Origin: Tubiluchus corallicola
Taxonomy: Eukaryota; Animalia; Priapulida
Length of the DNA: 64,000 nucleotides
Direction: 5' to 3'
NCBI GenBank assembly: GCA_030141605.1
Contig: JAQGDQ010000954.1
Coordinates: forward strand, 12,851-76,850
Shown: in pieces, positions 3,106 through 62,465 of the stretch
How the letters are laid out: each line of letters starts with the position of its first letter
Numbering within the stretch: the stretch's first letter is position 1
Notes under the pieces: generated by a model
Database searches by the model: none
What the model saw: only the letters and a program-made list of their open reading frames with translations
Told to the model about the DNA's origin: nothing
Program-made: the position numbers and the translations under genes

Positions 3106-4791
3106 ATCTAAAACTAACGCATTAGAAAATAATATTGTAGTGATAGCTTGTGTCAAACATTTAAACAAATATTCTGATACATTTGTGAAACTAAAAATCA
3201 GAAAATATACTTTGCAACAAGAACTTATGATTGTATTTAAAGTTACAAAGAAGATCCTGACTGTTCTATGGCGGTCCTGTTCATCCCGGAAATCCAGTGT
3301 AGCATAATTAATCCCGGAAATCGAGTGTAGCAGGGTAATTGGTAGCCATTTGACTTGTAATGGAATAATTAAGTTTTTCTGTATTCTTTTCACTTCACTG
3401 TTTTGCACATCCATCTTAATTATAAAGACCCGCTAAGGCCTTCTAAAAACTTTCGTGATTGTATTTCTACTTGGAAAAATTGAAGCCCTTTTAAACATTT
3501 TAATGACTTAAAAACGTATAAAAACTATTTTCTGGGATTATAGAAACGTTTAAGAGTCATAAGTCATTTATTTCACATTACACATTTACAATAGTTTCAT
3601 GTACAATATCTAGTGAAAGGACCTACAATGAACATAATACACATAAGAAATACTGCATAGGAAAAGCCTCAAACACTGTGCACCTATATACACAAATGTA
3701 AATGTGTTGCGGGCAATCAATTTATTGTGTGCACAATCATATCATTTTTCAACGAGAGCTAATTATGCAAACTTTGTGGTAAGATCTTTTGTCAAGACGA
3801 CGAACATCCTTTTTTCTTTTTTTACACTTTGATTCTAACGTAATGTTTACCGACTGTTCTCCACTTGTGATGCGCAGTAAGAAAAGCGCATGCGCTGGTC
3901 TGTTTCTGCCGTCAGAGGCGCAATCGAAGTACCGTGTTGCTTGTAGTTTTTCCCGCGCGATTAAAAAGAAGCTAATCACTCGTTTTGTAATTAGTTACGC
4001 AACAAAATATGTTCGATTTGTTTCCCAGAGACAAGTTTAGTACATTCACTTTGGTGATATTCCCCCCTTTAACTGATATAATTTTCCATTCAAAATGTCG
4101 TCCCGAGTCGAGGCAAGGTCAAATTTTATTAGTAAAACTTTTTATATACTACGTCTATACCATATTGATACGCAGTTTGCATACCATGCCTCGGGACCCT
4201 AGCTGTGGCGGGTCTAAAGCTGCACTACGTCATACTTTGTTGTTGTTTTAATTTTCATTTATTCTTACAAAAACTTTAAGGTACAAACAGAAACAATCCT
4301 CGCTACAGAAATTCTTATACGGGTTCACGCAATTCTGACAGCAATAGCGACGGCCATGTTTGATATTATAAGAAAGTTGAAGAGAAACTTTTGCAACAGG
4401 ACGCCCCATCAAGTCACTAGCTGACATCAATGTACACTTTATTGCTTGAAGGCTTTAAGCTACATTCATTGACAAGCAGTACGTGACTCTGGCACAGGCA
4501 AAGCATTAAATCTGGTTAGTTGCTAGAAACTACAAAGAATTAACGCCTCACACGCTCACAAAAAATGGTTTTTTAACTCCAATTTTTGATCTGTGCTCTA
4601 TAGTTCAAATGTTAATGAAATCTACGCATGCGCAGTCCCTTCAGCGCGAGAACGTTGGGTAAAAACTTGCAAACCCACCCCTCGCATTCGCAAAAATGGG
4701 CAAAACTTGAAAAGAAGGGTCTAGCTGAACACGAGAGAGGTATGTGTCTTACACACAGGTCTGATCAGCGTGGTGAACGGGAGAAGACAAC

Positions 4792-6711
4792 ATGGCAGAG
4801 TTCAAGAAAAAGAGACAAAAGAGGTTGATATTGTTGGTGATCGTGCTGAGTTTAGTGCCAGTTATCATCGTCATTGCGCAGAACATTGTCTGGATGAAAG
4901 AAGCTGGCAAGACGGTTGTGAACATCAACAAACTTCACGAATCTTTCAACTTTACGCTCAAGGTTGCTGACATCATGGACAAGATACAGACAGAAAGACA
5001 TTTGACGCTAATCTATCTGGCCGCTACGAGTTCGCAAGGACGTAATCTGGTGCAGAAAACGTTAGAAAAAGCGTACGAAGCAACCGACCAAGCTTTTGAA
5101 ATCATTAAATTTGATGAGTGGATTCGAGGTTCCGACGCGTTTCGAAGTCAAAATGACCTCAATGCGTACATTCGACAACACCGCACGGACCTCCAACCAA
5201 ATTCTCCCAGAAAAGGGGAACTGAAATTCTACAATGACATCAATGAGAAACTGTCGCATTGGGTTTCCGGTCAGCTCAAACAGGTGTCGCATACATCGAG
5301 CTGGGATACCATCACCTCGTTTATACTGTTAACCGAAGGAAAGGAAAGGACCTCAAGGGCTGACACGCTTGGGACGATTCATTTTATGACCGGTATTTCA
5401 TTCTATTATGATTCCTATTATGACGCTATGCTGTATGCTCCAGAAAAATAGCATAAAATTAACTAATATTACGTTGATGTATAATATAAGTTTTGACCAC
5501 ATTGACATTAAATTTGACTGTGGAGATCTCACTGAGGTTTATAAAAACTGGTCGGAAACGAAAAGATTTCATTTTGTCCTTATTTAAAGTTAATCAAATA
5601 ATTGTTTTTATCTAAACTTGCAAAGCCATAAACTCAACTAAACTGCGTATTTTCTTGATTACAAAATGGTTTAATCAGCAACTCACAGACGTAAGCATTG
5701 TGCATTTCTTCCTATAAACGAAACTAGACTATATATGTCGCATATTGTATCGAGTACGCGATTGTGGTATTATGTGATCAATTTAATTGTCAGTCTACTA
5801 CACTGAAGTACTGATTTAGTCTATGCTGCCATCTACACTCTCTGACAAACTTTGTACAATTAGAGTGTAGATGGCAGCATAGACTAAATCAGCACTTTAG
5901 TGTAGTAGACTGACAATTAAATGGATCACATAATACCACAATCGCGTACTCCGTACAATAAGCGACAATATATTTCCACAAATTCACTTGCATTTTTCGA
6001 TAGACAAGTTGCAGTCTGGGGCTCTCAACCTCGAAGCTTGACGGGCCCTAGACTGTAGCCTATGCTAGCCTATAGGATAATCCACCCCTGGTTGCAAAGC
6101 TTGAGGGGCCCTAGACTGCAGCCTATACTAGCCTATAGGATAATTTGGCCCTGGTTGTTCGTCTGTGCACCCCTTTCAACCAGATGTTAGTAGAATTAAT
6201 TATTGATTTTTGCGTTTTAGGATCGCTTAATGATGAAAACCACAAGAACTTCGTAAAAGCGAGTACTTTAGGCAAATTCTTTCTTCAAAACATCTTTCCC
6301 GCCTCTCCAGACACGGAAGGCGCCTATCGAGACTACACGTTATCCAAAGACTACAGACAGAAGACCAAGTTGGACGCAGAAGTTCTAAACCAGAATCCGG
6401 TGGAAAACATGGCAGACAAGGTAAAAGAATGGAATCGCCTCCAAAAACCATACGCCAAGTTGCTGCGGGAAATGTCTAACAACCTGCAGGACAAATTCGA
6501 ACAGGATCTACGAGCAGAGAAACATGAGCAGTCAAGAGTCATTGGAGCAGGCGTGGCCGTACTCATCATCTCCCTCCTATGTTGGTTTATTGTGGTTATC
6601 TTGGTGAGAGCGTACGAATATGTGGCAATCAAGGCAGAGATGAAGTTGATGATGAGATCAGCAACTGCCAAAATGCTCACCATGGCAGGCATGGCGGCCA
6701 GTATAAAATGA
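4792..6711 (+). CDS. Two-TM membrane protein with an extracellular NIT (nitrate/nitrite-sensing) domain and no guanylyl cyclase domain, ~363 aa
   Basis: Exons 4792-5392 and 6221-6711 join in phase 1 (ACC G|gtattt...ttttag|GA TCG). An in-frame upstream TGA at 4762 and the context ACAACATGG support the start. Architecture: KKKRQKR, TM1, NIT-like motifs (DKIQTERHLTLIYL, YEATDQA, FYNDINEKL, LTEGKE...LG), TM2 (VIGAGVAVLIISLLCWFIVVILV), then a 34-aa tail and stop. Confidence 0.8.
5736..5967. mobile_element. Palindromic (fold-back) MITE in the NIT gene intron
   Basis: Arms of ~105 bp (tgtcgcatattgta...gctgccatctacactct / agagtgtagatggcagc...tacaataagcgaca) with few mismatches, a ~20-nt loop, and TA-rich flanks. 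Confidence 0.75.
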
Positions 6712-34200: not shown

Positions 34201-37200
34201 TATTGTTTCCTTGAACACCACAACCCAATTTAATCCATGAAAAACTTTAACAGGTCTGTTTTATCATTAGAAAAGTGGTGATATGCAGTCTATTTCTCTA
34301 CATATCTATGTACATATTTTTGTATCTTCATGTTGTTGCTGTAGCTCCTTACCTAAAGAGGCAATTGGCCTAGCTTAGGGCAGTTTATATTAAAATAACA
34401 TTAATTTTTACAAAGTTGAGGCCAACAAATGTATTTTTCAACTGGAATGAGCTAGTTGTTCGATATTTTGGTCTTGTTATGGCAGTTTCTATTGCATGCA
34501 GAAAGCAGCGTGGTATTTCGCTTGCTACTTTTGATGCCATGCATAATTTTGGTAGCAAGACCCGTCGTATCCCTAATTCAAGTTTGCAGTTCTTCTTGCC
34601 CTCCCAAGACGGTTACTGCAACCGTGACATACTATAATGCTAAATTTTGTGCGACTCTTAGAGTTAACGTATAGAATAACTCTTGTCTTCAATTAACTCC
34701 TAGTTCCTGCATCAGTTAGCACGTAAAACGAAATAAATCTGTAGTTTGCTATTCTGTATTTTTGTTTTAGGTTTTGGGTGACTACAACAGTTCTGTTTCA
34801 CATTTTGAAAGTTTTGCGTACACGCTGAGCACGGTGTCGGACTTTGCCGAGGCAGGAAAGCGCAAGCATGCTGTACTCTGTCACAGCAAGCTCGAGGAGG
34901 CTCTTGAAGAGCAACATAGGTTTGGGCATTTTTTTAAATAAACTTAGCTACATCAGTTGTTTACATATTTTTTAGCTATACTCTGCTATTATTATATTGA
35001 CATTAGTGGAATATAAGTGGCTTTGGTTATATTAAGGGTTATAAATTACATACTGTTTGTGACTTTTTAGATCATATTTTTTTAAAGGAAAAGCCAAGTC
35101 TTCTGGAGAGTTCAGTGTTCGGGAAAAATTATATTAGAAGGATTTGCTAAAATGTGGCAAACGCTTCATATAATTAGTAAATTCGCTATAAAGTAGTGAT
35201 CATTTCACCCTTGGGCGCTCCTATTTTGAATATCCGTTCTTCCACGAATGACGTAGTTTGTCGGCTGAAGAAAACTGGCGCACAGACAGTTTCTATCAAA
35301 AGTCTAATAAGTTTTTACGAAAAATTAGACAGCAGATTTTGTGGTGTTTTTGCATGAACATTAGGTAAGCTTCAGAAGTTTGAATTAGTTTAAGTGGCGC
35401 GCATTTATGGAAAGCCGCGATACGCTTACGAAAAATGCAGTGTCTTAATTACGTTTATTATACTATTGTTGTTGGCATCCTTCTGTCTCGGAAGACAATG
35501 GAGTGTGTGTCAAGAGAGTCAGTTATTGATCACATTGATGGAGCTGCAGCGTCGACTGTGGCTGAGCAGTCCGATCCTTGAACGTCTCCAGGGCGCACGC
35601 CTAGGCAAGGTGTATGGAGATCCTCAGTTGCCCAGACAACAGGAACCCCCTCTCTTCCTCGCTGGTGTAGTCCAAAGGAAAGCGGAGCGATACGTTTGGC
35701 ACCAGGTCGGCTGCAGGAGCTGCCGGAGTCAGTGAGCATGCTGCACTAGTCCGCCTTCGGGGCTCCACTCCTGATTTGAAAGGTTTACTCCTCTATACAT
35801 GGCCGTTGGGTCACTTAACCGCCTCCACCCTCTAGCCGTTGGCTGCTTGTGCAGCTCCTCAGCCTAGTGTCGAGATACAGTGTGGGCATCCCGCAAGCCT
35901 ACAGCACCTGGTATTCCTAGGCGGTCACCCATCCAAGTACTAACCAGGCTCTACGTTGCTTTGGTCGTAGTCATTTGGTGTGTCTATGACACTAATTTGT
36001 TTTGTGAATTGGTAGTTTCCTCTAAGACTAGTATAACATATCAACATAGCTCATAAAATAACAAGACGTCTCACAAGCTTGAGATGTAATTAGAATAGAT
36101 CAGCACCGTTTAATAATTACGAATGTTTTGTTTTTGGCAGGTCACTTCAGCGCACGCTTGCGCAGCTGCGCGATTATCAAATACAACACGAGAAACTTGT
36201 CAGAGCGCAAAACAAGCTGATCGCTGTAAAAGAGAAACCGGATCGTGCGTTCAAGAAACATCTGTTTTACGAGAAGGCCAGGCAAGCTGCTCTGCTGGAA
36301 GAACAAAGTAAGATTTAATAAAGGAAATGTTTTCGACGTAACGTGCTAGTTACACATAGCATGCTGTGGTACACTGAACGAGTTGTAAATATGTTACCGT
36401 GTCATTGTTAAAAAGTTCAGTATTCATAATCTGTTGGTTACATATAGCATGCTGTGGTACACTGAACAGTTGTAAATATGTTACCGTGCCATTGTTATAA
36501 AGTTCAGTATTCGTAATCTGTTGGTTACATATAGCATGCTGTGGTACACTGAACAGTTGTAAATATGTTACCGTGCCATTGTTATAAAGTTCGGTATTCG
36601 TAATCTGTTGGTTACATATAGCATGCTGTGGTACACTGAACGAGTTGTAAATATGTTACCGTGCCATTGTTATAAAGTTCGGTATTCATAATCTGTTGGT
36701 TACATATAGCATGCTGTGGTACACTGAACGAGTTGTAAATATGTTACCGTGCCATTGTTATAAAGTTCGGTATTCATAATCTGTTGGTTACATATAGCAT
36801 GCTGTGGTACACTGAACGAGTTGTAAATATGTTACTGTGTCATTGTTAAAAAGTTCAGTATTCGTAATCTGCTAGTTACATATAGCATGCTGTGGTACAC
36901 TGAACGAGTTGTAAATATGTTACCGTGCCATTGTTATAAAGTTTAGTATTCATAATCTGTTGGTTACATATAGCATGCTGTGGTACACTGAACAGTTGTA
37001 AATATGTTACCGTGCCATTGTTATAAAGTTCGGTATTCATAATCTGTTGGTTACATATAGCATGCTGTGGTACACTGAACGAGTTGTAAATATGTTACCG
37101 TGCCATTGTTATAAAGTTCAGTATTCATAATCTGTTGGTTACATATAGCATGCTGTGGTACACTGAACAGTTGTAAATATGTTACCGTGCCATTGTTATA

Positions 37201-40200
37201 AAGTTCGGTATTCATAATCTGTTGGTTACATATAGCATGCTGTGGTACACTGAACAGTTGTAAATATGTTACTGTGCCATTGTTATAAAGTTCAGTATTC
37301 ATAATCTGTTGCTTACATATAGCATGCTGTGGTACACTGAACAGTTGTAAATATGTTACCGTGCCATTGTTATAAAGTTCGGTATTCATAATCTGTTGGT
37401 TACATATAGCATGCTGTGGTACACTGAACAGTTGTAAATATGTTACTGTGCCATTGTTATAAAGTTCAGTATTCATAATCTGTTGGTTACATATAGCATG
37501 CTGTGGTACACTGAACGAGTTGTAAATATGTTACCGTGCCATTGTTATAAAGTTCAGTATTCATAATCTGTTGGTTATTTCTTAATAATCTGCACATAAT
37601 TGTATGTTGCTCCTGTCATATTATAGTAACCCTAAATCCATAATAGACATGGGTGGCACTGAACTATCAGCCATGGGCACCCTGATGCCTTAATACGCTG
37701 TTTAAGTCAGGGGTCTCAAAAGTGGTCGATATTGACCCCTGGGTGTCGCTAGGACTATCCAAGCGGTCCATAAATGCCATTTTTAATGTATTTTAGGGGG
37801 GAGGCAATATTCACAGGGTGAGGGGATACAGAACAACAGTTTCTCAGGTAATATCATCCAGTTTCCAGGGTTCAGTATGCAGTTCCTCTCACTAATGTAT
37901 ATGGAAACTGCACATCTGCTTAATTATTATTAATATTTATTTTTTGTACATGCCCGGGGGTCGGCAAAAAATCAAGGATTCCGCGAAGAGGTCAACAGTC
38001 TAAAAGTTTGGGGACGCGTGGTTTACGTGATTCATGACTTACCACGCGTTCATTTAATGCAGCCTACGTGGGCTTTTCTTCTTCTTCCCAGCTTTTCCCT
38101 ATTCGGGGTCGCCGTTGTGAATGAGTCTTCTCCACGCATTCCTGTTGTTGACCATCTCTTCATTTATGTCTTCCCTTCCCACATGATCTTCACCGACTCT
38201 TCTTTTCAGGTGTCCATACCATCGCAATCTTGCGAGGCTTCCACTACTTTTACTGTTCCTCTGATATTATTATTTCTAATTTTATCTCTTCTTCTTATTC
38301 CCACCTTCCATCTCAACATCCTCATCTCCACCACACCCATCTTCTTCTCTTCGGTCTTCTTTAGAGAAGCTGCTTCCAGCCCGTAGAATAGAGCGGGTCT
38401 GATCACTTCTTTGTGGACTTGACCTTCAAGTCTCACCGACTCATTCATAGAAAGTTTTGGCGCAGTTTTTACAGGCGGATGCCCTTCCTGACCCTTCCTG
38501 ACATAAAGTAAATCTGCTTTTCTTCTGTAGCATGTGCTATCCCACTGAGTGAACTAAAATCTGAGGGCTTCGAAGAGTGATTAATAATGAGATGAATTCT
38601 ACAATACATTTCAGGTGATGATGATATGCAAGCGTGCCTAGACGGTTTCAAGGAAAACGGAAACGGCAAACTGAATTGCCTCTTACCTAAAGAAGACCGC
38701 CCAGCAACTGCTGATGTCAGCCGCGAGCAAACTAAAACTGATGTCACCATGGAAACGACGGAAGCAGTGAGAATCTTTTTTGTTCTTTAACCTTTGAGAT
38801 AAAAGCATTTTACTTTGTTTAATCTAGTTGAATTTTTTTGTGTTTTTATGATGCAGATCTACAAGTTATGTAATTTTCCCACATTTTAAGCTTTTTTAAG
38901 GTTGCATTCAAATTACACTTGTTGAACATTCTAAGTCTTGCAGTTCCAACGTTTGATGATGATCGTGGAAAGGTCAAAGGTCAAGTGTGCCAAACAATGC
39001 AATTTGTACACTTGACAATGCTTCACAGCCCAGGCTGTTGTAATAGTAACAGTTTTCACAGCTAGCTAGAATCTTACCTAGTTGATTTGTTCTTGTTTCC
39101 AAGCAAGATCCTGCTAGTAAATCACTCTACGTACAGACTAATGCATAATTAAGTGAAGTCCATGTCAGAACAACTGAAGTTACTGAACTGAGGCATCGCT
39201 TTACGTCACGTGCCGATTGTACTTAAGACACACTTAGCCTTTGACCTACAGCAACAACTGCGCAACGAAACTATGAAAAGACTTATTGATAATTTACACC
39301 GTGACCACTCGGCTATGCATTCGCTCTGGAATGCGTTTCGCTACTTTTCTCGTAGATGAGTTTCGCTTTAACTCATGAAAAATGAAAAACGGTTTAATCG
39401 GTTTAAACACTTTTATAGAGCATTATTTTACACATCATTTTTTGGTGACCAAAAGTAACCAAAAGTGACCAAAATTACCTAATTTGAAGATAGTGCTTAG
39501 CAAGTCCACATAAAATAACAAGGAAATGGCACCGTGTTTTTCTATGGCTAATTCTCGGCCGGGGTTGCCGTTTTGAATGATGCTCATTCTATTGGAAGCT
39601 AAAAGTATGAAATTTTCCGCCAAATCCAGGGATGAGAATTTTCAGCGGATACGCGGAATTCCGAGTTTTTGGAAGACCAGTAGTGCCATTTTTGTAAATC
39701 GCGTAAATTCGTTGAGAAAATTTTTCGGGGTTGAACCTTGTTTTCGTCGAAATCGTAACCGAAATTTTCAGCAGCATTTTTCGAGGTATTTATCCAGCTT
39801 ACCTTTTATCTCCTAGATGTTAAAAATCGCTGAAAAATTTTGGCTAAAATAGTTCATATGAAGTGTAAATATCGTTTATTTGATAATCTGTACGATGTGT
39901 AGCATGCCTTTTACGGCAATGCGGCATATCTTCATTGCTGACATATGTGAAGCTTTGAGGCCTCCAGACACAAACAACCGAAATACCAAAGCGTAATTTG
40001 AATAAAACCAAGTTTAATTTTATAATTTATGAAATATGGGCATCAAAATATATACAAAATAGAATTTGTTAATTTTTTGAAGCTTCACTATCATATGTAT
40101 CATGTATCCTTGATAGTTGGGTATTTTAAATTATGCATGAAACAAGGTGATTGATATTTTAAGTCCACTTAGAGGCTCTCTATGGTCACAAAATTGCAAT

Positions 40201-46200: not shown

Positions 46201-49200
46201 TCTGATTGGTGCATATTGGTTGTGCTGTGCTCGAGTCTTTATCTCATAAACTAAGGTGGTCTGATCACACAATTAATCATCTCACGTCCAAAAAGGATCC
46301 CTATCCAATAAAAAAAGCACATGTGTCAAACATTCATTCACCCCTTCTCTCTCCCCATGAAATTTCAGGTTTTTTGCACCAAACTTATATGATATTTGCA
46401 GAGAGTAAAGTAATCAAAATAATCAAAATTTTACTGCCTTTTAAACAGCTATGTTTTTAGTGTGCCACGTTAATGTAATTATTTTTATTCTTCCAGTTAC
46501 ATGCACTGTAATTTGAACATTTTATATACCCGTAGGAAAATGGACCACTATGGACCCTGTACAACCTAGCCGGGCTATACTGGCAGATCCTAGGTAATCC
46601 GTACCAGGCGATCGAATGCTACCGACGGAGCTTGCGATACTGTCCACCAGATGTCAGTGATGTTCCTAAAACTAACCTTGCTCAAGTTTTATTTTTCCTG
46701 GGAAAGAAACACTGGGGTGATGCAGCTGCCCTTGTCGAACACGCCATAGCTATAAACAACATGGAGGTAAAGAGTTAACCCTTGCAGCATCTAGAGTTCT
46801 TATTGGCTGTGCCTAGTGGTGTCTTAATATGGACGGAAGAGTGGGAAGGATAAGCAACTCGTTTATTAATGATTTCATTTATATCAATTTAGAGGTAGCA
46901 ACTGCTGATTGTTTAGATTTTCTAGAAATCGGTGGAAAGTCGAGCCATAAATACATAGCAGTATTCTTCTTCTTCCCAGCTTTTCCCTATTCGGGGTCGA
47001 CGTTGTGAGTGAGTCTTCTCCACGCATTCCTGTTGTTTACCATCTCTTCATTTATATCTTCCCTTCCCACATGATCTTCACCGACTCTTCTTTTCAGGTG
47101 TCCATACCATCGCAATCTTGCGAGGCTTCCACTACTTTTACTGTTCCTCTGATATTATTATTTCTAATTTTATCTCTTCTTGTTATTCCCACCATCCACC
47201 ACAACATCCTCACCTCCACCACACCCATTTTCTTCTCTTCGGTCTTCTTTAGAGAAGCCGCTTCTAACCCCTAGATTAGAGCGGGTCTGACCACTTCTTT
47301 GCGGACTTTCCCTTTAAGTCTCACCGACTCATTCATAGAAGGTTTTGTCGCAGTTTTTACAGGCGGATGCCCTTTCTGACCTTAACCCTCCCTATTTATC
47401 AGGGCTTGGGACCGGCACTTAGTTGGGCTGGGTCCCCCCCCCCCCCCCAGTGGCTAGGTTCCACAAATACGTAGCAGTAATGTAACATATTAGGACACAT
47501 AGTGTATCGCAGAGTAGTTACCTATTGAACAGTTAGAGAGACCTTAAATACTCTCGTTGTGTTAGTAGTGGTTGGTTCAGTTTACTACAGGTATTACGTA
47601 TTCGTTGGGTATTAACGGAGATAGGCTCAGTTAATTGTCAGTGTGTAGTAGTGGAACAGATAAATTAATTTAGTAGATATAATCGATTTCGGCTTTTATT
47701 GCTTATCGCCGACGATGTTTTTCTCCTGGTGATGCAAATCGATTACATTGGTGGTGCCATTTGCATTTATTTTACCGCAAAAACAACAAAAATTGCCTAA
47801 CAAATATAGCTGCCACAGCGGCGAAATCAAGCAATATTGCACTATCTTTGCGTGCCAACTTATCGACCTGGTCACGCTAAATGAAGCAATATGGCACTAT
47901 CTTTGCATGTTAACTTATCGACCTGGTCACGCTAAATGAAGCAATATAGCACTATCTTTGCATGTTAACTTATCGACCTGGTCACGCTAAATGAAGCAAT
48001 ATGGCACTATCTTTGCATGTTAACTGATCGACCTGGTCACGCTAAATGAAGCAATATGGCACTATCTTTGCATGTTAACTTATCGACCTGGTCACGCTAA
48101 ATGAAGCAATATGGCACTATCCTTGCATGTTAACTTATCGACCTGGTCACGCTAAATGAAGCAATATGGCACTATCCTTGCATGTTAACTTATCGACCTG
48201 GTCACGCTAAATGAAGCAAATAGGCACTCATCCTTTGCATGTTAACTTATCGACCTGGTCACGCTAAATGAAGCAATATGGCACTATCCTTGCATGTTAA
48301 CTTATCGACCTGGTCACGCTAAATGAAGCAATATGGCACTATCCTTGCATGTTAACTTATCGACCTGGTCACGCTAAATGAAGCAATATGGCACTATCTT
48401 TGCATGTTAACTTATCGACCTGGTCACGCTAAATGAAGCAATATGGCACTATCTTTGCATGTTAACTTATCGACCTGGTCACGCTAAATGAAGCAATATG
48501 GCACTATCTTTGCATACTGTCTTATCACCTTTTTCATGCTGCTTACATGCAAAAATTTCTGATAAACACGAACAAATGGTAACATTGTTGCTTTATGTGC
48601 GCTTCCTTTCTTGACAAAAATTGTAAACAAAAATAACTCAGTTTTGTTGGATTGTTTTGTAAGCTACAAACTAATAAAATAAACTCATTTAGAACTTGTT
48701 CCTTACTTTATACCTTTTTACATTTACCAGCACTAGAATTAAAAACAGCATTGATTAAGATAGCAAACCTGTTGCACTCAAAGAGTTATTTACTAAAAAA
48801 TTTTTGAATTTACTCATTTTTTATGCTTAAAATCCGGATATAATTGATTACCAAATCGATTTCGTATCCGATTAATCGATTATGAAAATAAAACTGACGC
48901 CCCACCACTAGCGTGTAGATACGTAAAATATATTATACCTCTTCTGTATGTTCTTTTATTTATTATTATCATTGTTTACCTTTGGTTATCTATGATTTGC
49001 AGCTTTTCTGTCCCTCTGCTTGCCTAAGATTTCTTGTCTTGTCTTTACATTATACTGATTCGGACTGAGGGCAACCATAATAAAACCTGAAATATTTGTG
49101 CTTTGGTATTTCCATCCAATTCTAAGATCAGTGCAATTTGTTAATTTTGTTGGGATTTTGTACTTATATGTTTATTTCTTATGGTGTTGGTCATTTGCCG

Positions 49201-52200
49201 AATTCCTTCATATTTTCTATTCATTCTGTTCCTCTCATACAGTTACATTTAAGAAGCAAGACGATGTATAATCTTGGTACAGTCTGTAAGCCACTAACTT
49301 TGTAGTTGGCGTGTAAATTCTGTTTGCAATACTTCCAAAACTCTTCAATTTTTTTTGCAGCCTGTGACAAACTACATCCTCGGCAACATTAAGCTGGTCC
49401 ACGGGAACTCGAGCGGTGCCATTCATCACTACCAGGTGGCTCTGAGGCAGGACCCCGACTTTCAGGCACCACTGGAGATTCTCCGAGTCGTGCGGTGCTA
49501 CTCAAAATTCAAAGGGGTAAATTTGATTTGTTATTACTGAGGATTCTATGTTAAGTACTAAAAGTCTGCTGTAGCATAATGCTTGACAACAGTGAAAATA
49601 GGTACATAATTAATTTATATAATGCACATTGTATTAATGATAGTATCTGTAGTAAATGTTTTCACTGTGACACACATGTTTCAGTAACCAAGTAACAGTT
49701 ATCAAGTGACACAAGATAAGTTGAAAAGGCTCGTGAGTTCTCTGTATATATTTTTAATTAGAGTAATCGAATAATTTTATTAATTAGTTAATGAACATTT
49801 GCTGAAGTGAAACTTCATCAAAGGGGATTTTACTCGTTTGGATCACAAACCCCAAATCACCATTTGCTTCTGTCAACTTTTGACATTAGAATACTTGTAC
49901 CGGTGGGTGCAAAAAATGAAGCCCTTTTGAAGAATCATAAAAAACTTGGAATAAAAGTTTTTGCCGTGTATTATGAGTCACGTCAAGTTTTAAATAAGAA
50001 AGTTCAAACTTTCTAAAGAAACAAATAAATGCATCTTATCATTTAAAAAGTGATAACCTAGTGAATGCATATTTGCCAAACATCTCAATTATTTTTTTCA
50101 TTTAAAGCATGTGTGGACCAATAACTTCATTAAGAATATATACAATCATGCGGCTACCACTGCACCTGAAAATTTCTGTACAGCAGTAATTAATATAAAT
50201 TAACGTTATGTTCAAGACATTTTTTTCAAATTTCTTTGTTACATTTGTCTATCTCTAAGTGATAATAGTAAAATAAACCCAATGTGCTAAGTGACGCATC
50301 CTTTCCTTTAGCTTCGGCTTCAGTCGTAAACTGATGCCTGAAGAATGCTCTTTTGTTGCTCGTGCAGTCCATCAGGACTGCATTAAAGCTTGTCTTGATT
50401 AGAAGGCATTCTCTGATGCAATAGTTTTGTTTTGGATTCGTCAGTCAGTGGTTCAAATCCAGATGCACTCTTGACTTTTTCAAATTTCTTCTCTTTTGGT
50501 CAGCTTTACTAACTAGCAGTTATTAAGTTTATAATAACCTCAGATTTATTATAGCCTTCATGCTAAGTAAGCAGCCATTTGCATTATACTTGTGTTTATT
50601 ATTTGAGTAGGAGAAAAACTGGTCAACTTCCTGGTTTTTTGAGTTCACGTCATTTAAACTAAGAGAAACTTTTTGCAGCATAATGTTCATTCGGGTTCGC
50701 ATATATAACTATCCAGTAGTGGCTGCTATTGAAAAAATAACTGCTAGTATCAAAAAATCTACTTGTTGATGTCATAAAAGTGTCTATTTTTGTTGAAAAA
50801 GATACTGCTAATTTTGAAAAGTATTTGTTATTATTGTTACTTTTGTTATTGTTGAAAAAGTAACTGCCGCTATTGAAAAAGTAACTGTCACTATTGAAAA
50901 AGTAACTGTCGCTATTGAAAAAGTAACTGTCGCTATTAAAAAAGTAACTGTTGCTATGGAAAGAGTCTTTTTAACCAGAAAAAACTTTTAGACAAATGTT
51001 TACTGTAATTTTACATAAAGTAACAGCGTAATTTATTATCATTCGGGTTCGCATATATAACTATCCATTGTCTTTGTAAAAACTTGTTAAACCCTGGGCA
51101 GTGTACTGCTTTTATTCTATTGGTCATATGACGTAATAATTCGTTCAAAATGAGCACGCCTAAGCACGGAGTAATCACGACTTTATAGTGATTTTGGTTG
51201 TCCGTATGCTGATGCAGTGCTTGTGTTGCTGAAGCTTTCATACGTTTCTCTCCAACCTCTCATACACTAATGGCGCATTCACACATCTCTCACTGCTTGT
51301 TGTGCAATTTCTCTCTGTTGGCGCGTTCAGATGTAGAGATCTCTCACTGCTTGTTGTGCAATTTCTCTCTGTTGGCGCTTTCAGATGTAGAGATCGCTCA
51401 CAGCTTGTTGTGCAATTTCTCTCTGTTGGCGCGTTCAGATGTAGAGATCGCTCACAGCTTGTTGTGCAATTTCTCTCTGATGGCGCGTTCAGATGTAGAG
51501 ATCGCTCACAGCTTGTTGTGCAATTTCTCTCTGTTGGCGCGTTCACATGTAGAGATCGCTCACAGCTTGTTGTACAACTTCTCTCTGTTGGCGCGTTCAC
51601 ATGTAGAGATCGCTCACAGCTTGTTGTGCAATTTCTCTCTGATGGCGCGTTCAGATGTAGAGATCGCTCACAGCTTGTTGTGCAATTTCTCTCTGATGGC
51701 GCGTTCAGATGTAGAGATCACTCACAACTTGTTGTGCAATTTCTCTCTGTTGGCGCGTTCAGATGTAGAGATCGCTCACAGTGATGGCGCGTTCAGATGT
51801 AGAGATCGCTCACAGCTTGTTGTGCAATTTCTCTCTGATGGCGCGTTCAGATGTAGAGATCGCTCACAGCTTGTTGTGCAATTTCTCTCTGTTGGCGCGT
51901 TCACATGTAGAGATCGCTCACAGCTTGTTGTGCAATTTCTCTCTGTTGGCGCGTTCAGATGTAGAGATCGCTCACAGCTTGTTGTGCAATTTCTCTCTGT
52001 TGGCGCGTTCACATGTAGAGATCGCTCACAGCTTGTTGTGCAATTTCTCTCTGATGGCGCATTCAGATGTAGAGATCTCTCACAACTTGTTGTGCAACTT
52101 CTCTCTGTTGGCGCGTTCAGATGTAGAGATCTCTCACAACTTGTTGTGCAACTTCTCTCTGTTGGCACGTTCAGATGTAGAGATCGCTCACAGCTTGTTG

Positions 52201-54449
52201 TGCAACTTCTCTCTGATGACGCGTTCAGATGTAGAGATCGCTCACAGCTTGTTGTGCAATTTCTCTCTGTTGGCACGTTCACATGTAGAGATCGCTCACA
52301 GCTTGTTGTGCAACTTCTCTCTGTTGGCGCGTTCACATGTAGAGATCGCTCACAGCTTGTTGTGCAATTTCTCTCTGATGGCGTGTTCACATGTAGAGAT
52401 CGCTCACAGCTTGTTGTGCAACTTCTCTCTGTTGGCGCGTTCACATGTAGAGATCGCTCACAGCTTGTTGTGCAATTTCTCTCTGTTGGCACGTTCACAT
52501 GTAGAGATCGCTCACAGCTTGTTGTGCAACTTCTCTCTGTTGGCGCGTTCACATGTAGAGATCGCTCACAGCTTGTTGTGCAATTTCTCTCTGTTGGCAC
52601 GTTCACGTGTAGAGATCGCTCACAGCTTGTTGTGCAATTTCTCTCTGATGGCGCATTCAGATGTAGAGATCTCTCACAACTTGTTGTGCAACTTCTCTTT
52701 GATGGCGCGTCCAGATGTAGAGATCGCTCACAGCTTGTTGTGCAATTTCTCTCTGATGGCGCATTCAGATGTAGATATCACTCACAACTTGTTGTGCAAT
52801 TTCTCTCTGTTGGCGCGTTCACATGTAGAGATCGCTCACAGCTTGTTCTGCAATTTCTCTTTGATGGCGCATTCAGATGTAGAGATCGCTCACAACTTGT
52901 TGTGCAATTTCTCTCTGATGGCGCGTTCAGATGTAGAGATCTCTCACAGCTTGTTGTGCAATTTCTCTTTGATGGTGCGTTCAGATGTAGAGATCGCTCA
53001 CAACTTGTTGTGCAATTTCTCTCTGATGGCGCGTTCAGATGTAGAGATCTCTCACAGCTTGTTGTGCAATTTCTCTCTGATGGCGCGTTCAGATGTAGAG
53101 ATCTCTCACAGCTTGTTGTGCAATTTCTCTTTGATGGTGCGTTCACGTGTAGAGATCTCTCACAACTTGTTGTGCAATTTCTCTCTGATGGTGCGTTCAC
53201 GTGTAGAGATCTCTCACGACTTGTTGTGCAATTTCTCTCTGTTGGCACGTTCAGATGTAGAGATCGCTCACGGCTTGTTGTGCCACTTTGAGAGTAAAGT
53301 TGCACGTGTGAACGGCTTGGCAAATTTCTCTTGTTGTCGAACCGTTCGCTCGTCTGACTTTATTCTTAGAGAGAAGTTGAGCAACAAGTTGAGAGAGAAG
53401 TCTCTACGTGTGAGCACGCCATAACAATCTTTGGTAAAAACGCCTCTTATTTTGATAGCATCGTAATTACATGGCATGCTGTTTAAAAGTATGCTATTAC
53501 ACGGCATGCTGTTTAAAAGTATGCTCTTGTTCAGTTGCAGAATTCCAAATCTTCAGAGGGATTTAGCAAAGCAGACGACGACGACACGACGTGCGAAATG
53601 CCGGAATCTCAAATGAGCAACATAATGGACGGCTTTGTCTGCACGAACATCAACGGTGTGGAACACTGCACGATGAAGCAGTTCCACAATCCGCAGCAGC
53701 AGGAGTGCACGAACCGCTGCAAGAAAATGTCGCCCAGCAAAAGCGTGACGAAATCACTGCGTAAGTCAAACGCCTTGCTAGTGCGCGCGGTACAAACGCA
53801 TCTGTTTGCACAGTAGCACTGTAATGATTCTTACGCACTTACACGTCTCTACTGCATGTGTTGTGATTGCACATAGCAAACTGTTACTGACGGGATGCAT
53901 CCGAATGTTTGCAGAAGGACACTAGCTACAGTAGCATCAGTCATTGTGCATGCGTTTTGTGTGCAGTGTTACTGAACAAAGTTTGAGCTTAGTTAGTCTA
54001 CTGACAAATTCACAGCACGTTTGGCAAAATGTCCAAATGATCATTGCATATTTTACTGTGTTTAAATTCCACCATTAATGTTTAGCTATTAAGCACTGAT
54101 AAGATTTTCCCACAATGGGAAGTTGAGAACTAGATTAGGAGGGGTGAAATGTTTAGCACAAACATCAGGAAATCTTCTGCCAAATGGCTCAATGTATGTG
54201 GTCCATGATCAAGAATAAGCACACCGCCTGTCTGCAAAATATTTTTAGTACTCATTTTGTGCACATATTACCTTGATTATGTCTCTTTTGCAGCTGTTGA
54301 ATTCTTATTTTAGTATAAATGAGATTTGTCACAATACCTGTTCATTTATGCTCATTTGCTTTGTAAACCTATATCAGAGGAGGAATGTTTATAGTCCTTG
54401 ACAAAAACCAATTAAGATTTGCATTTCCAAAAACTCACTAATGTAATTT

Positions 54450-55398: not shown

Positions 55399-56616
55399 CC
55401 TAAACCCGACTCACTTCTCATCCCGACTCACTTCTCATCCCTACTCAACGTAAACCCGACTCACTTCTCATCCCTACTCAACCTAAACCTAGAACTTGGC
55501 ATTCCTACTCAACCTAAACCCGACTCACTTCTCATTCTCATCCCGACTCACTTCTCATCCCTACTCAACGTAAACCCGACTCACTTCTCATCCCTACTCA
55601 ACCTAAACCCGACTCACTTCTCATCCCTACTCAACCTAAACCAACCACCACCAACCAAACCCACCACCCACCCGACTCACTTCTCATCCCTACTCAACGT
55701 AAACCCGACTCACTTCTCATCCCTACTCAACGTAAACCCGACTCACTTCTCATCCCTACTCAACCTAAACCCTAAACCCGACTCACTTCTCATCCCTACT
55801 CAACCTAAACCCGACTCACTTCTCATCCCTACTCAACCTAAACCCGACTCACTTCTCATCCCTACTCAACGTAAACCCGACTCACTTCTCATCCCTACTC
55901 AACCTAAACCTAGAACTTGGCATTCCTACTCAACCTAAACCCGACTCACTTCTCATCCCTACTCAACCTAAACCCGACTCACTTCTCATCCCTACTCAAC
56001 CTAAACCCGACTCACTTCTCATCCCTACTCAACCTAAACCCGACTCACTTCTCATCCCTACTCAACCTAAACCTAGAACTTGGCATTCCTACTCAACCTA
56101 AACCCGACTCACTTCTCATCCCTACTCAACCTAAACCCGACTCACTTCTCATTCCTACTCAACCTAAACCCGACTCACTTCTCATCCCTACTCAACCTAA
56201 ACCCGACTCACTTCTCGTTCCTACTCAACCTAAACCCGACTCACTTCTCGCCCCTACTCAACCTAAACCCGACTCACTTCTCGCCCCTACTCAACGTAAA
56301 CCCGACTCACTTCTCGCCCCTACTCAACCTAAACCCGACTCACTTCTCGCCCCTACTCAACGTAAACCCGACTCACTTCTCATCCCTACTCAACCTAAAC
56401 CCGACTCACTTCTCGCCCCTACTCAACCTAAACCCGACTCACTTCTCATCCCTACTCAACGTAAACCCGACTCACTTCTCATCCCTACTCAACCTAAACC
56501 CGACTCACTTCTCATCCCTACTCAACCTAAACCCGACTCACTTCTTGTCCCTACTCAACCTAAACCCGACTCACTTCTCATCCCTACTCAACCTAAACCT
56601 AGAACTTGGCATTCCT
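55394..56616. repeat. 33-bp C-rich minisatellite at the fold-back junction
   Basis: Unit ctactcaacctaaacccgactcacttctcatcc, interrupted by ctagaacttggcattc variants; garbled stretch at 55641-55670. Confidence 0.95.
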
Positions 56617-58824: not shown

Positions 58825-59565
58825 CTTTCCATAGTAACAGTTACTTTTTCAATAGCGACAGTTACTTTTTCAATAGCGACAGTTACTTTTTCCATAGCGA
58901 CAGTTACTTTTTCCATAGCGACAGTTACTTTTTCCATAGCGACAGTTACCTTTTCAATAGCGACAGTTACTTTTTCAATAGGAACAGTTACTTTTTCAAT
59001 AGCGACAGTTACTTTTTCAATAGCGACAGTTACTTTTTCCATAGCGACAGTTACTTTTTCCATAGCGACAGTTACTTTTTCCATAGCGACAGTTACCTTT
59101 TCAATAGCGACAGTTACTTTTTCAATAGGAACAGTTACTTTTTCAATAGCGACAGTTACTTTTTCAATAGCGACAGTTACTTTTTCCATAGCGACAGTTA
59201 CTTTTTCCATAGCGACAGTTACTTTTTCCATAGCGACAGTTACCTTTTCAATAGCGACAGTTACCTTTTCAATAGCGACAGTTACTTTTTCAATAGCGAC
59301 AGTTACTTTTTCAATAGCAACAGCTACTTTTTCAATAGCGACAGTTACTTTTTCCATAGCGACAGTTACTTTTTCAATAGCGACAGTTACCTTTTCAATA
59401 GCGACAGTTACTTTTTCAATAGGAACAGTTACTTTTTCAATAGTGACAGTTACTTTTTCAATAGCGACAGTTACTTTTTCCATAGCGACAGTTACTTTTT
59501 CAATAGGAACAGTTACTTTTTCAATAGTGAAAGTTACTTTTTCAATAGCGACAGTTACTTTTTCA
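58825..59565. repeat. 21-bp minisatellite, ~35 copies
   Basis: Unit ttcaatagcgacagttacttt; source of the EKVTVAI pseudo-ORF. Confidence 0.96.
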
Positions 59566-60096
59566 ACAATAACAAAAGTAACAATAATAACAAATACTTT
59601 TCAAAATTAGCAGTATCTTTTTCAACAAAAATAGACACTTTTATGACATCAACAAGTAGATTTTTTGATAGTAGCAGTTATTTTTTCAATAGCAGCCACT
59701 ACTTTTTTAATAATAGCATATACTATTCCAAAAGCAGCAAACGCTTTTTCAAAAGTAACAGATACTATTCCAAAAGCAGCAAATGCTTTTTCAACAGTAA
59801 CAGATACTATTCCAAAAGCAGCAAATGCTTTTTCAGTAGAAGCAGATATGTCTTTGATAGTAGCAAATATTTTTTTTGACAGTAGAAAATACTTTTTCAA
59901 TGGCAGTGGATACTTTTCAATAGTAGCAGTTACTTTTCCAATATTAGCAGATGGTTTTTCAATAGCAGTACATATTTTTCAAATATAGTAAGTACTTTTT
60001 CAGTAGCAGTGAATGTTATTCTACTATGCAGATGAGGCCGGCGGTCTTCGATTACATAATAGATACACAATTATAAAATCAAAAAAATAAATTTAC

Positions 60097-60559: not shown

Positions 60560-60839
60560 AATGCATTTGTCCATTTAAGTAGCATTGCTAGAACAGTGTA
60601 ATGATTTGAAAAGAAAAAAATTGAAAACCAACTCGTTCTTCCATTGAGAATACATTTTACAGCAAGCTTAATACAATATTTCAGTAGAGGCAATCATATC
60701 ACATCAGCTGTAAGGAAGTATAGTTAGTAAATTACACAGTAGCTATTACTAAATCATGCCGACATGCTAATAACATAAAATAAATGTTAGTAATGAGGCA
60801 TGTGAACAAGAAAATATTAGAAATTCAGAGATGAGCTTA

Positions 60840-61830
60840 TTACGCCAGACATGGCATTTAGCAAGACAATGACCAGTCACTACGCCAGACATGGCATTTA
60901 GCAAGACAATGACCAGTCATTATGCCAGACATGGCATTTAGCAAGACAATGACCAGTCATTATGCCAGACATGGCATTTAGCAAGACAATGACCAGTCAT
61001 TACGCCAGACATGGCATTTAGCAAGACAATGACCAGTCATTAGCCAGACATGGCATTTAGCAAGACAATGACCAGTCATTATGCCAGACATGGCATTTAG
61101 CAAGACAATGACCAGTCATTATGCCAGACATGGCATTTAGCAAGACAATGACCAGTCATTATGCCAGACATGGCATTTAGCAAGACAATGACCAGTCATT
61201 ATGCCAGACATGGCATTTAGCAAGACAATGACCAGTCATTAGCCAGACATGGCATTTAGCAAGACAATGACCAGTCATTACGCCAGACATGGCATTTAGC
61301 AAGACAATGACCAGTCATTATGCCAGACATGGCATTTAGCAAGACAATGACCAGTCATTATGCCAGACATGGCATTTAGCAAGACAATGACCAGTCATTA
61401 TGCCAGACATGACATTTAGCAAGACAATGACCAGTCATTATGCCAGATATGGCATTTAGCAAGACAATGACCAGTCATTACGCCAGACATGGCATTTAGC
61501 AAGACAATGACCAGTCATTATGCCAGACATGGCATTTAGCAAGACAATGACCAGTCATTATGCCAGACATGGCATTTAGCAAGACAATGACCAGTCATTA
61601 TGCCAGACATGGCATTTAGCAAGACAATGACCAGTCATTATGCCAGACATGGCATTTAGCAAGACAATGACCAGTCATTTAACCAGACATGGCATTTAGC
61701 AAGACAATGACCAGTCATTATGCCAGACATGGCATTTAGCAAGACAATGACCAGTCATTATGCCAGACATGGCATTTAGCAAGACAATGACCAGTCATTA
61801 TGCCAGACATGGCATTTAACAAGACAATTA
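60840..61830. repeat. 40-bp minisatellite, ~25 copies
   Basis: Unit tatgccagacatggcatttagcaagacaatgaccagtcat. Confidence 0.97.
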
Positions 61831-62465
61831 GCTGTCATTATTGCCTACAGCCTTTTCTAAAGAGTTTTTTAAAGAACTTTGGCTCTCTGCAAGGCATTCA
61901 GTGCTCAAGGCATTTACTCGATAAACACGGCTGTGGTGGAAGGAAAAGCTATCACATTATCAAGAATGGTCATCTAAGATGGACCACTGGACAGGCGAGG
62001 TGTCTCAAACATGCATCCGTCCACAAACATGTAAATACCCACGGGTAGACAAATCTGTATGATATGCGTATTGAATCTATTAGTCACCAGTCCATTCACT
62101 GACCATGGTCAGCAATGCATAACTTTGTAAGCACAACGGGTAACCACTGAACTATTCATGTTACGCCAAAATGTTACAATTTGATTCAGTGAAGATAATC
62201 TGCACAAATGACCGGTGGTAAAATAAGCCATTCATTATTCAAGTGTTTAACAGCAAATGCGATCACAGCCTCGGTCAAATCAGGAAAAGGATGATTTTGT
62301 TCTGCTAAATGTGTTAACAGAACTATTCTTATTCTTTCTAGTTCAGAAGCTGCTGCTTTGTTGATGCTGGAGAGTATTCAGTATGCAGTTTTTTAATTAT
62401 GAAAATAACAGGTAAGGGAAACCAATATTAGAACAGAGAGGAGATGACTGTCACCGTCCGACAGA

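What the first reader, a model, noticed from the sequence alone, without database searches (positions are those of the whole stretch)
46945..47479. Twister-ribozyme-capped short RTE retroelement inserted exactly from the cleavage site
Seen: a ~500-bp minus-strand element between 19-bp target-site duplications. It consists of a twister core (AA-CCUA-GCC...GCCGGUCCCAAGCCCUGAUAAA-UAGG-GAGGG), an RTE-like 5'UTR, a deletion junction into the RTE ORF C-terminus, and a (GAA)n tail. The first base after the TSD (47460) is the A immediately 3' of the twister U^A scissile bond; the U and the 5' strand of P1 are absent. Known: twisters process the 5' ends of RTE elements such as Schistosoma Perere-3, and ribozyme-bearing short internally deleted elements (SIDEs) are known for R2 with HDV-like ribozymes. 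Inference: this is a non-autonomous family, lacking a Pol III head, that is released from host transcripts by self-cleavage and mobilised by an RTE partner. This copy looks inactive (P4 mismatch, G at position -1, no P1 partner in the flank), so only insertions whose flank rebuilds P1 would be source copies.
Basis: partly seen in the sequence, partly recalled or inferred. Interest (0 to 1): 0.82.

Follow-up and report, generated by a model that had tools for sequence, protein, structure and literature searches.

The report
Twister-headed miniature RTE retroelement, damaged copy
This is one damaged copy of an abundant 497-base jumping element, likely cut down from a longer retrotransposon; many of its copies begin exactly where a self-cutting RNA fold is predicted to cut, which would extend a trick already shown in a blood fluke to a miniature parasite element.

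Summary
Observation confirmed. The minus-strand element spans 46964-47460 between target-site duplications matching at 17 of 19 bases. It starts at A1 of a twister-P1 match (E 8e-08, 42.4 bits, below Rfam's 67.2 cut-off). It is a family: a second window copy has the same three deletions, and contigs from two samples show 5' junctions with unrelated flanks piled at 47460/47461 (36 of 42 long loose ends in the rows shown). The family's majority letters restore P3 and P4, so this copy's breaks are private. Two corrections: published work shows twisters cut without P1 and with G at -1, so 'only P1-rebuilding flanks are sources' is unsupported; and both copies lie antisense in introns of a TPR gene, so that gene's transcript cannot carry the ribozyme. 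Cleavage, transcription and the full-length partner are inferred. Twister-headed RTEs (Perere-3) and two-part non-autonomous RTEs are both published; I found no paper on the combination, but this scan noted it before in four findings on other DNA. New member of a known kind.

The parts
47461..47479 (-). 5' target-site duplication (19 nt); its last base, G47461, is position -1 of the ribozyme
   Evidence: 17 of 19 identical to 46945-46963
47386..47460 (-). Twister-P1 core from A1 (47460): P2 47455-47458/47391-47394, T2, P3 hairpin 47416-47452 with a G15 run (47434-47448), P4 47412-47415/47400-47403 with a mismatch at 47401, T1, general-base G47390 (role recalled)
   Evidence: Rfam RF03160, E 8.1e-08; pair tables; run length
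47380..47385 (-). 3' strand of P1; its 5' partner comes from the flank
   Evidence: Rfam alignment; pair table
47328..47379 (-). RTE-type 5' UTR ending in two overlapping ATGs (47334-47336, 47330-47332); the first deletion junction lies at about 47328/47327
   Evidence: Same UTR motif precedes the ORF start in twister-headed APE+RT elements such as L002, L003, L004; protein hits begin at codon 4-5 of the fused frame
47121..47327 (-). ORF piece 1: region after the RT core, matching residues 853-916 of the 1008-aa L004 ORF; one stop codon in this copy
   Evidence: tblastn; 72% identical to P0069
47060..47120 (-). ORF piece 2 (RLRWYGH motif), after a frame-shifting deletion of about 16 nt
   Evidence: Comparison with P0069, P0073, P0078; size inferred from these homologues
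46987..47055 (-). ORF piece 3 to the stop codon, after a deletion of about 28-30 codons
   Evidence: Gap against P0080; loose ends at 47055 and 47060-47062 carry the missing sequence
46964..46986 (-). Short 3' UTR and (GAA)4 tail (46964-46975)
   Evidence: Sequence; 3' loose ends pile at 46964: 28, 24 and 26 contigs in X1, X2, X4
46945..46963 (-). 3' target-site duplication
38076..38515 (-). Second family copy, 5'-truncated just behind the ribozyme, same three junctions, candidate 11-nt TSD (38516-38526 / 38072-38082, overlapping the tail)
   Evidence: 94.5% identical over 418 nt with no gaps
46767..49360 (+). Host intron (GT...AG, phase 0) of a plus-strand TPR-protein gene; the element lies antisense in it
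   Evidence: TPR_2 on the upstream exon, E 3.1e-06, and a weak TPR_2 on the downstream exon, E 0.012; the two exons join in frame

Best explanation
This is a damaged copy of an abundant short element made of the two ends of an RTE-type retrotransposon; its twister head likely cuts the RNA free at its first base, and a full-length partner likely copies it into new sites. Shown: the anatomy, the TSDs, three shared deletions, 5' ends piled at A1 with unrelated flanks, an intact ribozyme pairing pattern in the family's majority letters, and less-deleted 3' forms in the same samples. Inferred steps: (1) a source copy is transcribed by read-through from outside the element; (2) the twister cuts N^AA and leaves a 5'-AA RNA; (3) the partner's APE/RT protein binds the 3' end and GAA tail and inserts a copy by target-primed reverse transcription, giving the TSD; (4) complete copies start at A1 and take position -1 and the 5' strand of P1 from the new flank. 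The flank probably tunes cleavage rather than switching it on or off. This copy is probably not a source: it has private P4 and P3 breaks and lies antisense to its host gene.
For: Twister-P1 hit starting at the TSD edge. 5' loose ends at 47460: 14 contigs in X1, 10 in X2, 7 in X4; at 47461: 3 and 2; flank agreement only 0.46-0.65. 5 of 36 flanks begin with G against 6.5 expected at random. Majority letters at 47401 and 47420 restore P4 and P3. Second copy has the same junctions and other flanks. Summed contig depth stays high across the UTR/ORF junction in X1 (about 8-9e5 at 47314-47345 against 128 in the flank; not a copy number). The same twister+UTR motif leads into the endonuclease region in 7 of 9 fetched loci, and L004 is a single 1008-aa APE+RT ORF. 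Precedent: Perere-3 T-variants cleave in vitro and in yeast, with TSDs next to the AA (PMC8501958 sections 18, 19, 21, 22).
Against: No cleavage or RNA data. The full-length partner was not recovered: the closest protein is 72% identical. The Rfam score of this copy is under the gathering cut-off. X1 and X2 are one sample and may be the window's source, so only X4 is independent. 74 loose-end rows were not shown. No whole genome was held, so copy number, TSDs and orientation were not tabulated. A precise internal promoter would give the same 5' pile-up.
Confidence: 0.8

Rival explanations
1. The 5' end is set by an internal Pol II promoter that starts at the first A. The twister is inherited from the parent and no longer needed.
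For: No cleavage shown here. Internal promoters are common in LINEs (PMC8501958 introduction), and PMC5786205 section 23 says LINE 5' ends drive transcription. The 5' arm of P3 has become a G run of variable length.
Against: The end falls on the exact scissile position. The majority letters keep P2, P4, T1, T2 and the base of P3 paired; P3 is an optional stem (PMC5408937). The family is young (copies 2-4% from the majority), so conservation alone is weak evidence.
Confidence: 0.1
2. One reading: the ribozyme works only where the flank rebuilds P1 (and has U at -1), so a few insertions are the only sources.
For: PMC8501958 section 21 proposes that the TSD-made P1 raises or lowers activity. Only about 7% of random window positions give 3 or more consecutive P1 pairs. 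The loose-end consensus at 47460 begins with U at -1 in X1, X2 and X4, though that is only a plurality in an AT-rich genome.
Against: Twisters without P1 cleave at almost wild-type rate (PMC5408937). C^AA, G^AA and A^AA substrates cleave. T-variants were found with up to four P1 mismatches.
Confidence: 0.15
3. There is no separately mobile short family: these are decayed full-length RTE copies, or DNA-level duplicates of one deleted copy.
For: Less-deleted 3' forms exist in the same runs. In X4 depth falls more than tenfold from the 3' to the 5' end.
Against: Two copies 9 kb apart share three junctions without a gap but have different flanks and their own TSDs. Depth does not dip at the UTR/ORF junction in X1 or X2.
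Confidence: 0.03

Closest known systems
Twister 'T-variant' ribozymes at the 5' end of Perere-3 (RTE clade), Schistosoma mansoni; Liu et al. 2021, PMC8501958 (abstract, sections 18 part 1 of 2, 19, 21, 22 and passages read)
   Same: Twister-P1 core at the extreme 5' end, TSD directly before the AA, position -1 and the 5' strand of P1 supplied by the flank, short tandem tail, single-ORF APE+RT relatives.
   Different: Perere-3 as described is full length and coding; this element has lost about 850 codons plus two smaller pieces. GAA tail rather than GTAA. Cleavage was shown there, not here. That paper left 18.6% of its 813 T-variants with no domain downstream, which may include such short forms.
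Bipartite ORF-absent non-autonomous RTE LINEs (RTESINE1/2, WALLSI3, MAR4_MD, Bov-A); Kojima 2018, PMC5786205 (abstract, section 23, passages; 1 supplement searched)
   Same: 5' end plus 3' end of an RTE-type LINE, no Pol III head; the paper suggests that 5' ribozymes explain why such elements keep the LINE's 5' end.
   Different: The paper cites only HDV-like ribozymes ('twister' occurs 0 times; twister motifs not found in its one supplement). Here the 3' part is about 340 nt of ORF in three pieces, not just the UTR.
R2 SIDEs of Drosophila; Eickbush and Eickbush 2012, PMC3414825 (abstract only)
   Same: 5' ribozyme joined to the 3' end of a LINE and copied in trans.
   Different: HDV-like ribozyme, R2/R1 machinery, fixed site in 28S rDNA. 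Here a twister, APE-type partner, dispersed sites.
Truncated twisters at the 5' ends of RTE-superfamily elements; de la Pena and co-workers 2020, PMC7761336 (passages)
   Same: States that truncated but catalytically competent twisters are conserved at RTE 5' ends.
   Different: One sentence citing work in preparation; non-autonomous derivatives are not mentioned in the passages seen.

Membership tests
Twister ribozyme, type P1 (Rfam RF03160) | Covariance-model match over the whole model | tested here: met
   Positions 1-68 of 68, E 8.1e-08
Twister ribozyme, type P1 (Rfam RF03160) | Score at or above Rfam's gathering threshold | tested here: not met
   42.4 against 67.2 bits for this copy, which lacks P1 and has a long P3; the majority form was not scored
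Twister ribozyme, type P1 (Rfam RF03160) | Stems P2 and P4, pseudoknots T1 and T2, conserved AA and G | tested here: met
   All paired in the majority letters; this copy has one P4 mismatch
Twister ribozyme, type P1 (Rfam RF03160) | Stem P1 | tested here: not met
   One pair next to the core, 2 of the first 4; expected for T-variants, and dispensable per PMC5408937
Twister ribozyme, type P1 (Rfam RF03160) | Self-cleavage at N^A | not testable with these tools
   Needs an in vitro assay
Bipartite non-autonomous LINE | 5' and 3' parts of a LINE joined by internal deletion, no RT or endonuclease | tested here: met
   UTR joined to residues 853 onward of a 1008-aa APE+RT ORF
Bipartite non-autonomous LINE | Multiple dispersed copies sharing the junctions, with TSD and tail | tested here: met
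   Two window copies; 5' and 3' junction pile-ups in two samples
Bipartite non-autonomous LINE | Autonomous partner in the same genome | tested here: inconclusive
   Only short undeleted 3' loose ends; no genome held; best protein 72% identical
RTE clade | Single ORF with APE and RT, short UTR, short tandem tail | tested here: met
   Met by relatives with the same head (L004) and by the tail here
RTE clade | RT phylogeny groups with named RTE elements | not tested
   The element has no RT core and no named RTE reference was fetched; the clade name rests on architecture, on Perere-3 and on recalled motifs
SINE (Pol III head) | tRNA, 5S or 7SL-derived head with A/B boxes | tested here: not met
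   No tRNA, no such Rfam hit at the element, no A or B box

The most novel reading that the evidence does not exclude
The element is not quite non-coding. Its first deletion puts an ATG from the parent's start region in frame with 69 codons of the region after the RT core, giving an 80-codon ORF that is open in the second copy and in the family's majority letters. The cleaved twister, which supports downstream translation in the Perere-3 reporter work, could then drive a small peptide that helps or poisons the partner protein. Against: frame agreement has a 1 in 3 chance, the family is young, copies change more amino acids than silent sites (4:2 and 6:3), and 3 of 4 minority variants checked are missense or stop.
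Probability: 0.06. Interest if true: 0.6.

Novelty: new member of a known kind. Interest (0 to 1): 0.3.

Why it matters
It shows, by sequence, that the Perere-3 arrangement is carried by a short parasitic derivative in another invertebrate, and fits the idea that 5' ribozymes explain why only a few LINE clades spawn headless two-part parasites. Its practical value is as a test bed: many near-identical heads in different flanks are a natural series for asking how much position -1 and P1 matter, on which two published views differ. If intact heads cut host pre-mRNA, sense-strand intronic copies should be rarer than antisense ones; both copies here are antisense (2 of 2, too few to test). It is not a new principle.

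Tried and rejected
No whole genome is held, so no genome-wide BLAST. The viral collection gave 0 matches to the twister+UTR pattern; metagenome and genome collections gave 5 and 4 distinct loci, none of this family (best blastn matches cover only the head and UTR, for L001-L005). No RNA holder listed. Protein searches for the partner gave 1 hit each at 65% and 62% and a best of 72% among 150 listed. No contig joined the two flanks without the element, so no empty site was seen; contigs cannot show absence. Plain folding of 47370-47500 is not more stable than shuffles (z +1.25), uninformative for a double pseudoknot. The T1, T2 and P4 registers were mis-indexed and were redone. P2 compensation among relatives is only suggestive: 6 of 10 heads had a candidate, candidates were chosen by pairing, and two heads are identical. 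U at -1 enrichment: only a consensus plurality, not counted as evidence. Coding constraint on the 80-codon frame: not seen. The bacterial promoter scan found nothing and does not apply to an animal. Host phylum was not resolved: best MRM3 hit 45% identical. Nine paper searches found no report of a twister-headed non-autonomous RTE; the library lacks most subscription papers and Repbase, and bioRxiv supplements are closed.

Full report
Observation. On the minus strand, 47461-47479 and 46945-46963 agree at 17 of 19 bases and enclose 497 nt. Rfam's twister-P1 model matches 47382-47465 over all 68 positions at 42.4 bits, E 8.1e-08. That is under the gathering score of 67.2, so the window-wide scan listed only a 5S fragment elsewhere. 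The first two bases of the element, 47460 and 47459, are the AA after the scissile bond; position -1 is the last TSD base, G. P2, T1 and T2 are fully paired; P4 has one mismatch at 47401 and the base of P3 one at 47420. The P3 hairpin holds a run of 15 G. The element ends in a stop codon, a short UTR and (GAA)4.

It is a family. A second copy lies at 38076-38493, 94.5% identical over 418 nt with no gaps. It is cut just behind the ribozyme and has a candidate 11-nt TSD. No genome is held, so I laid public contigs on the element: four runs (3316, 2422, 1985 and 1269 contigs laid) and four (1402, 564, 205 and 1). X1, X2 and X3 are one sample and may be the window's source; X4 is another study. 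Summed depth in X1 is 128-178 in the flanks and 4.6-8.5e5 over most of the element. The tool warns that this is no copy number; it suggests thousands of copies as an order of magnitude only. Loose 3' ends pile at 46964 (28, 24, 26 contigs in X1, X2, X4). Loose 5' ends pile at 47460 (14, 10, 7) and 47461 (3, 2), with flank agreement of 0.46-0.65. Among the rows shown for these three runs, 36 of 42 long 5' loose ends are at these two places; the others are at 47445 (3), 47418 (2) and 47408 (1); 74 less-supported rows were not shown. Five of the 36 flanks start with G against 6.5 expected, so the flanks look random.

The damage is private. At 47401 about 98% and at 47420 about 99% of X1 depth carries the base that restores pairing. 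With the 20 majority letters applied, P2, the base of P3, P4, T1 and T2 are all paired; this copy differs from that majority at 20 of 497 places and the second copy at 10 of 418. The G run varies in length among contigs.

Origin. The same twister+UTR pattern matched 5 metagenome and 4 distinct genome-collection loci and no viral contig. In 7 of these 9 it leads into the endonuclease end of an ORF; L004 is one 1008-aa ORF with APE and RT domains. L009 ends too soon to tell, and L005 jumps from the UTR to residue 760, apparently another deleted element. The window element jumps from two overlapping ATGs at the end of the UTR to residue 853; protein hits begin at codon 4 or 5 of the fused frame. 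Two more deletions follow: about 16 nt at 47121/47120 and about 28-30 codons at 47056-47060, sized from homologues. A few contigs per run carry the sequence missing at the third junction (translated by hand it reads VMEMEVLGN and CINGDLREKN, like the homologues). A less-deleted relative therefore exists in these samples, but I did not recover a full-length partner; the closest protein is 72% identical and comes from a shrimp record. The RTE label rests on architecture, not on a tree.

Context. Exons with TPR matches on the plus strand flank the element; the donor at 46767 and acceptor at 49360 join in frame. The second copy also lies between plus-strand exon-like segments with splice signals. 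The gene resembles TTC17 (name recalled, not tested). Both copies are antisense, so the host pre-mRNA would carry the ribozyme's complement. That, with the P4 break, is the better reason to call this copy a non-source.

Mechanism. Most likely (0.8), a source copy is read through from outside, the twister cuts at N^AA, and the partner's protein copies the RNA into new sites, where the flank supplies position -1 and the 5' strand of P1. Only the DNA footprint is shown. Liu et al. showed cleavage, TSDs next to the AA and flank-made P1 for Perere-3 (PMC8501958). They also showed that G^AA, C^AA and A^AA cleave, and a review states that twisters without P1 cut at almost wild-type rate (PMC5408937). 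A precise internal promoter is the main rival for the 5' pile-up (0.1).

Novelty. Twisters at RTE 5' ends are published (PMC8501958; PMC7761336). Two-part non-autonomous RTEs are a named class with a suggested ribozyme link (PMC5786205), and R2 SIDEs are the HDV-type precedent (PMC3414825). Nine searches found no paper on the twister plus non-autonomous RTE combination, within a library that lacks most subscription journals. Earlier notes of this scan describe the same combination on other DNA (unchecked AI notes); none matched this sequence or this genome. The boldest reading left open is a translated 80-codon frame, for which I found no sign of constraint.

Noticed in passing
window:35470-35972 (-): A shortened 5S rRNA head (Rfam 44.4 bits) followed by about 420 nt of GC-rich body and a short CAA tail; looks like a 5S-headed SINE. 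No TSD found by a quick search.
   Followed up: partly
window:32149-49517 (+): Multi-exon TPR-protein gene (resembles TTC17; name recalled) that hosts both element copies antisense in introns.
   Followed up: partly
window:26233-26898 (+) and 4777-5451 (+): Exon of a mitochondrial rRNA methyltransferase MRM3 and an exon with a NIT domain.
   Followed up: partly
L005:847-1332: Another twister+UTR head that joins directly to the end of the RT region (residue 760 of the L004 ORF); possibly an independent deleted RTE derivative in another organism. One decayed copy only.
   Followed up: partly
L006, L007, L008, L009: Contigs filed under bacterial genomes carry twister-headed RTE-type sequence; probably animal DNA in those assemblies.
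   Followed up: no
window:47384-47386, loose ends in X1 and X4: A few contigs share the twister core but continue into a different UTR, pointing to a second twister-headed family in the same samples. One contig in X5 (organism B) has a related head with a fully paired P3.
   Followed up: no
window:38494-38515 (-): The truncated second copy starts with 13 foreign bases and a 9-nt duplication of its own first bases, like slippage at the 5' junction.
   Followed up: no
window:14031-16308, 36349-37577, 47824-48515, 51285-53283, 55422-56599, 58826-59566, 60839-61841: Many long minisatellite arrays (periods 21-87); the long ORFs over them are repeat artefacts.
   Followed up: no
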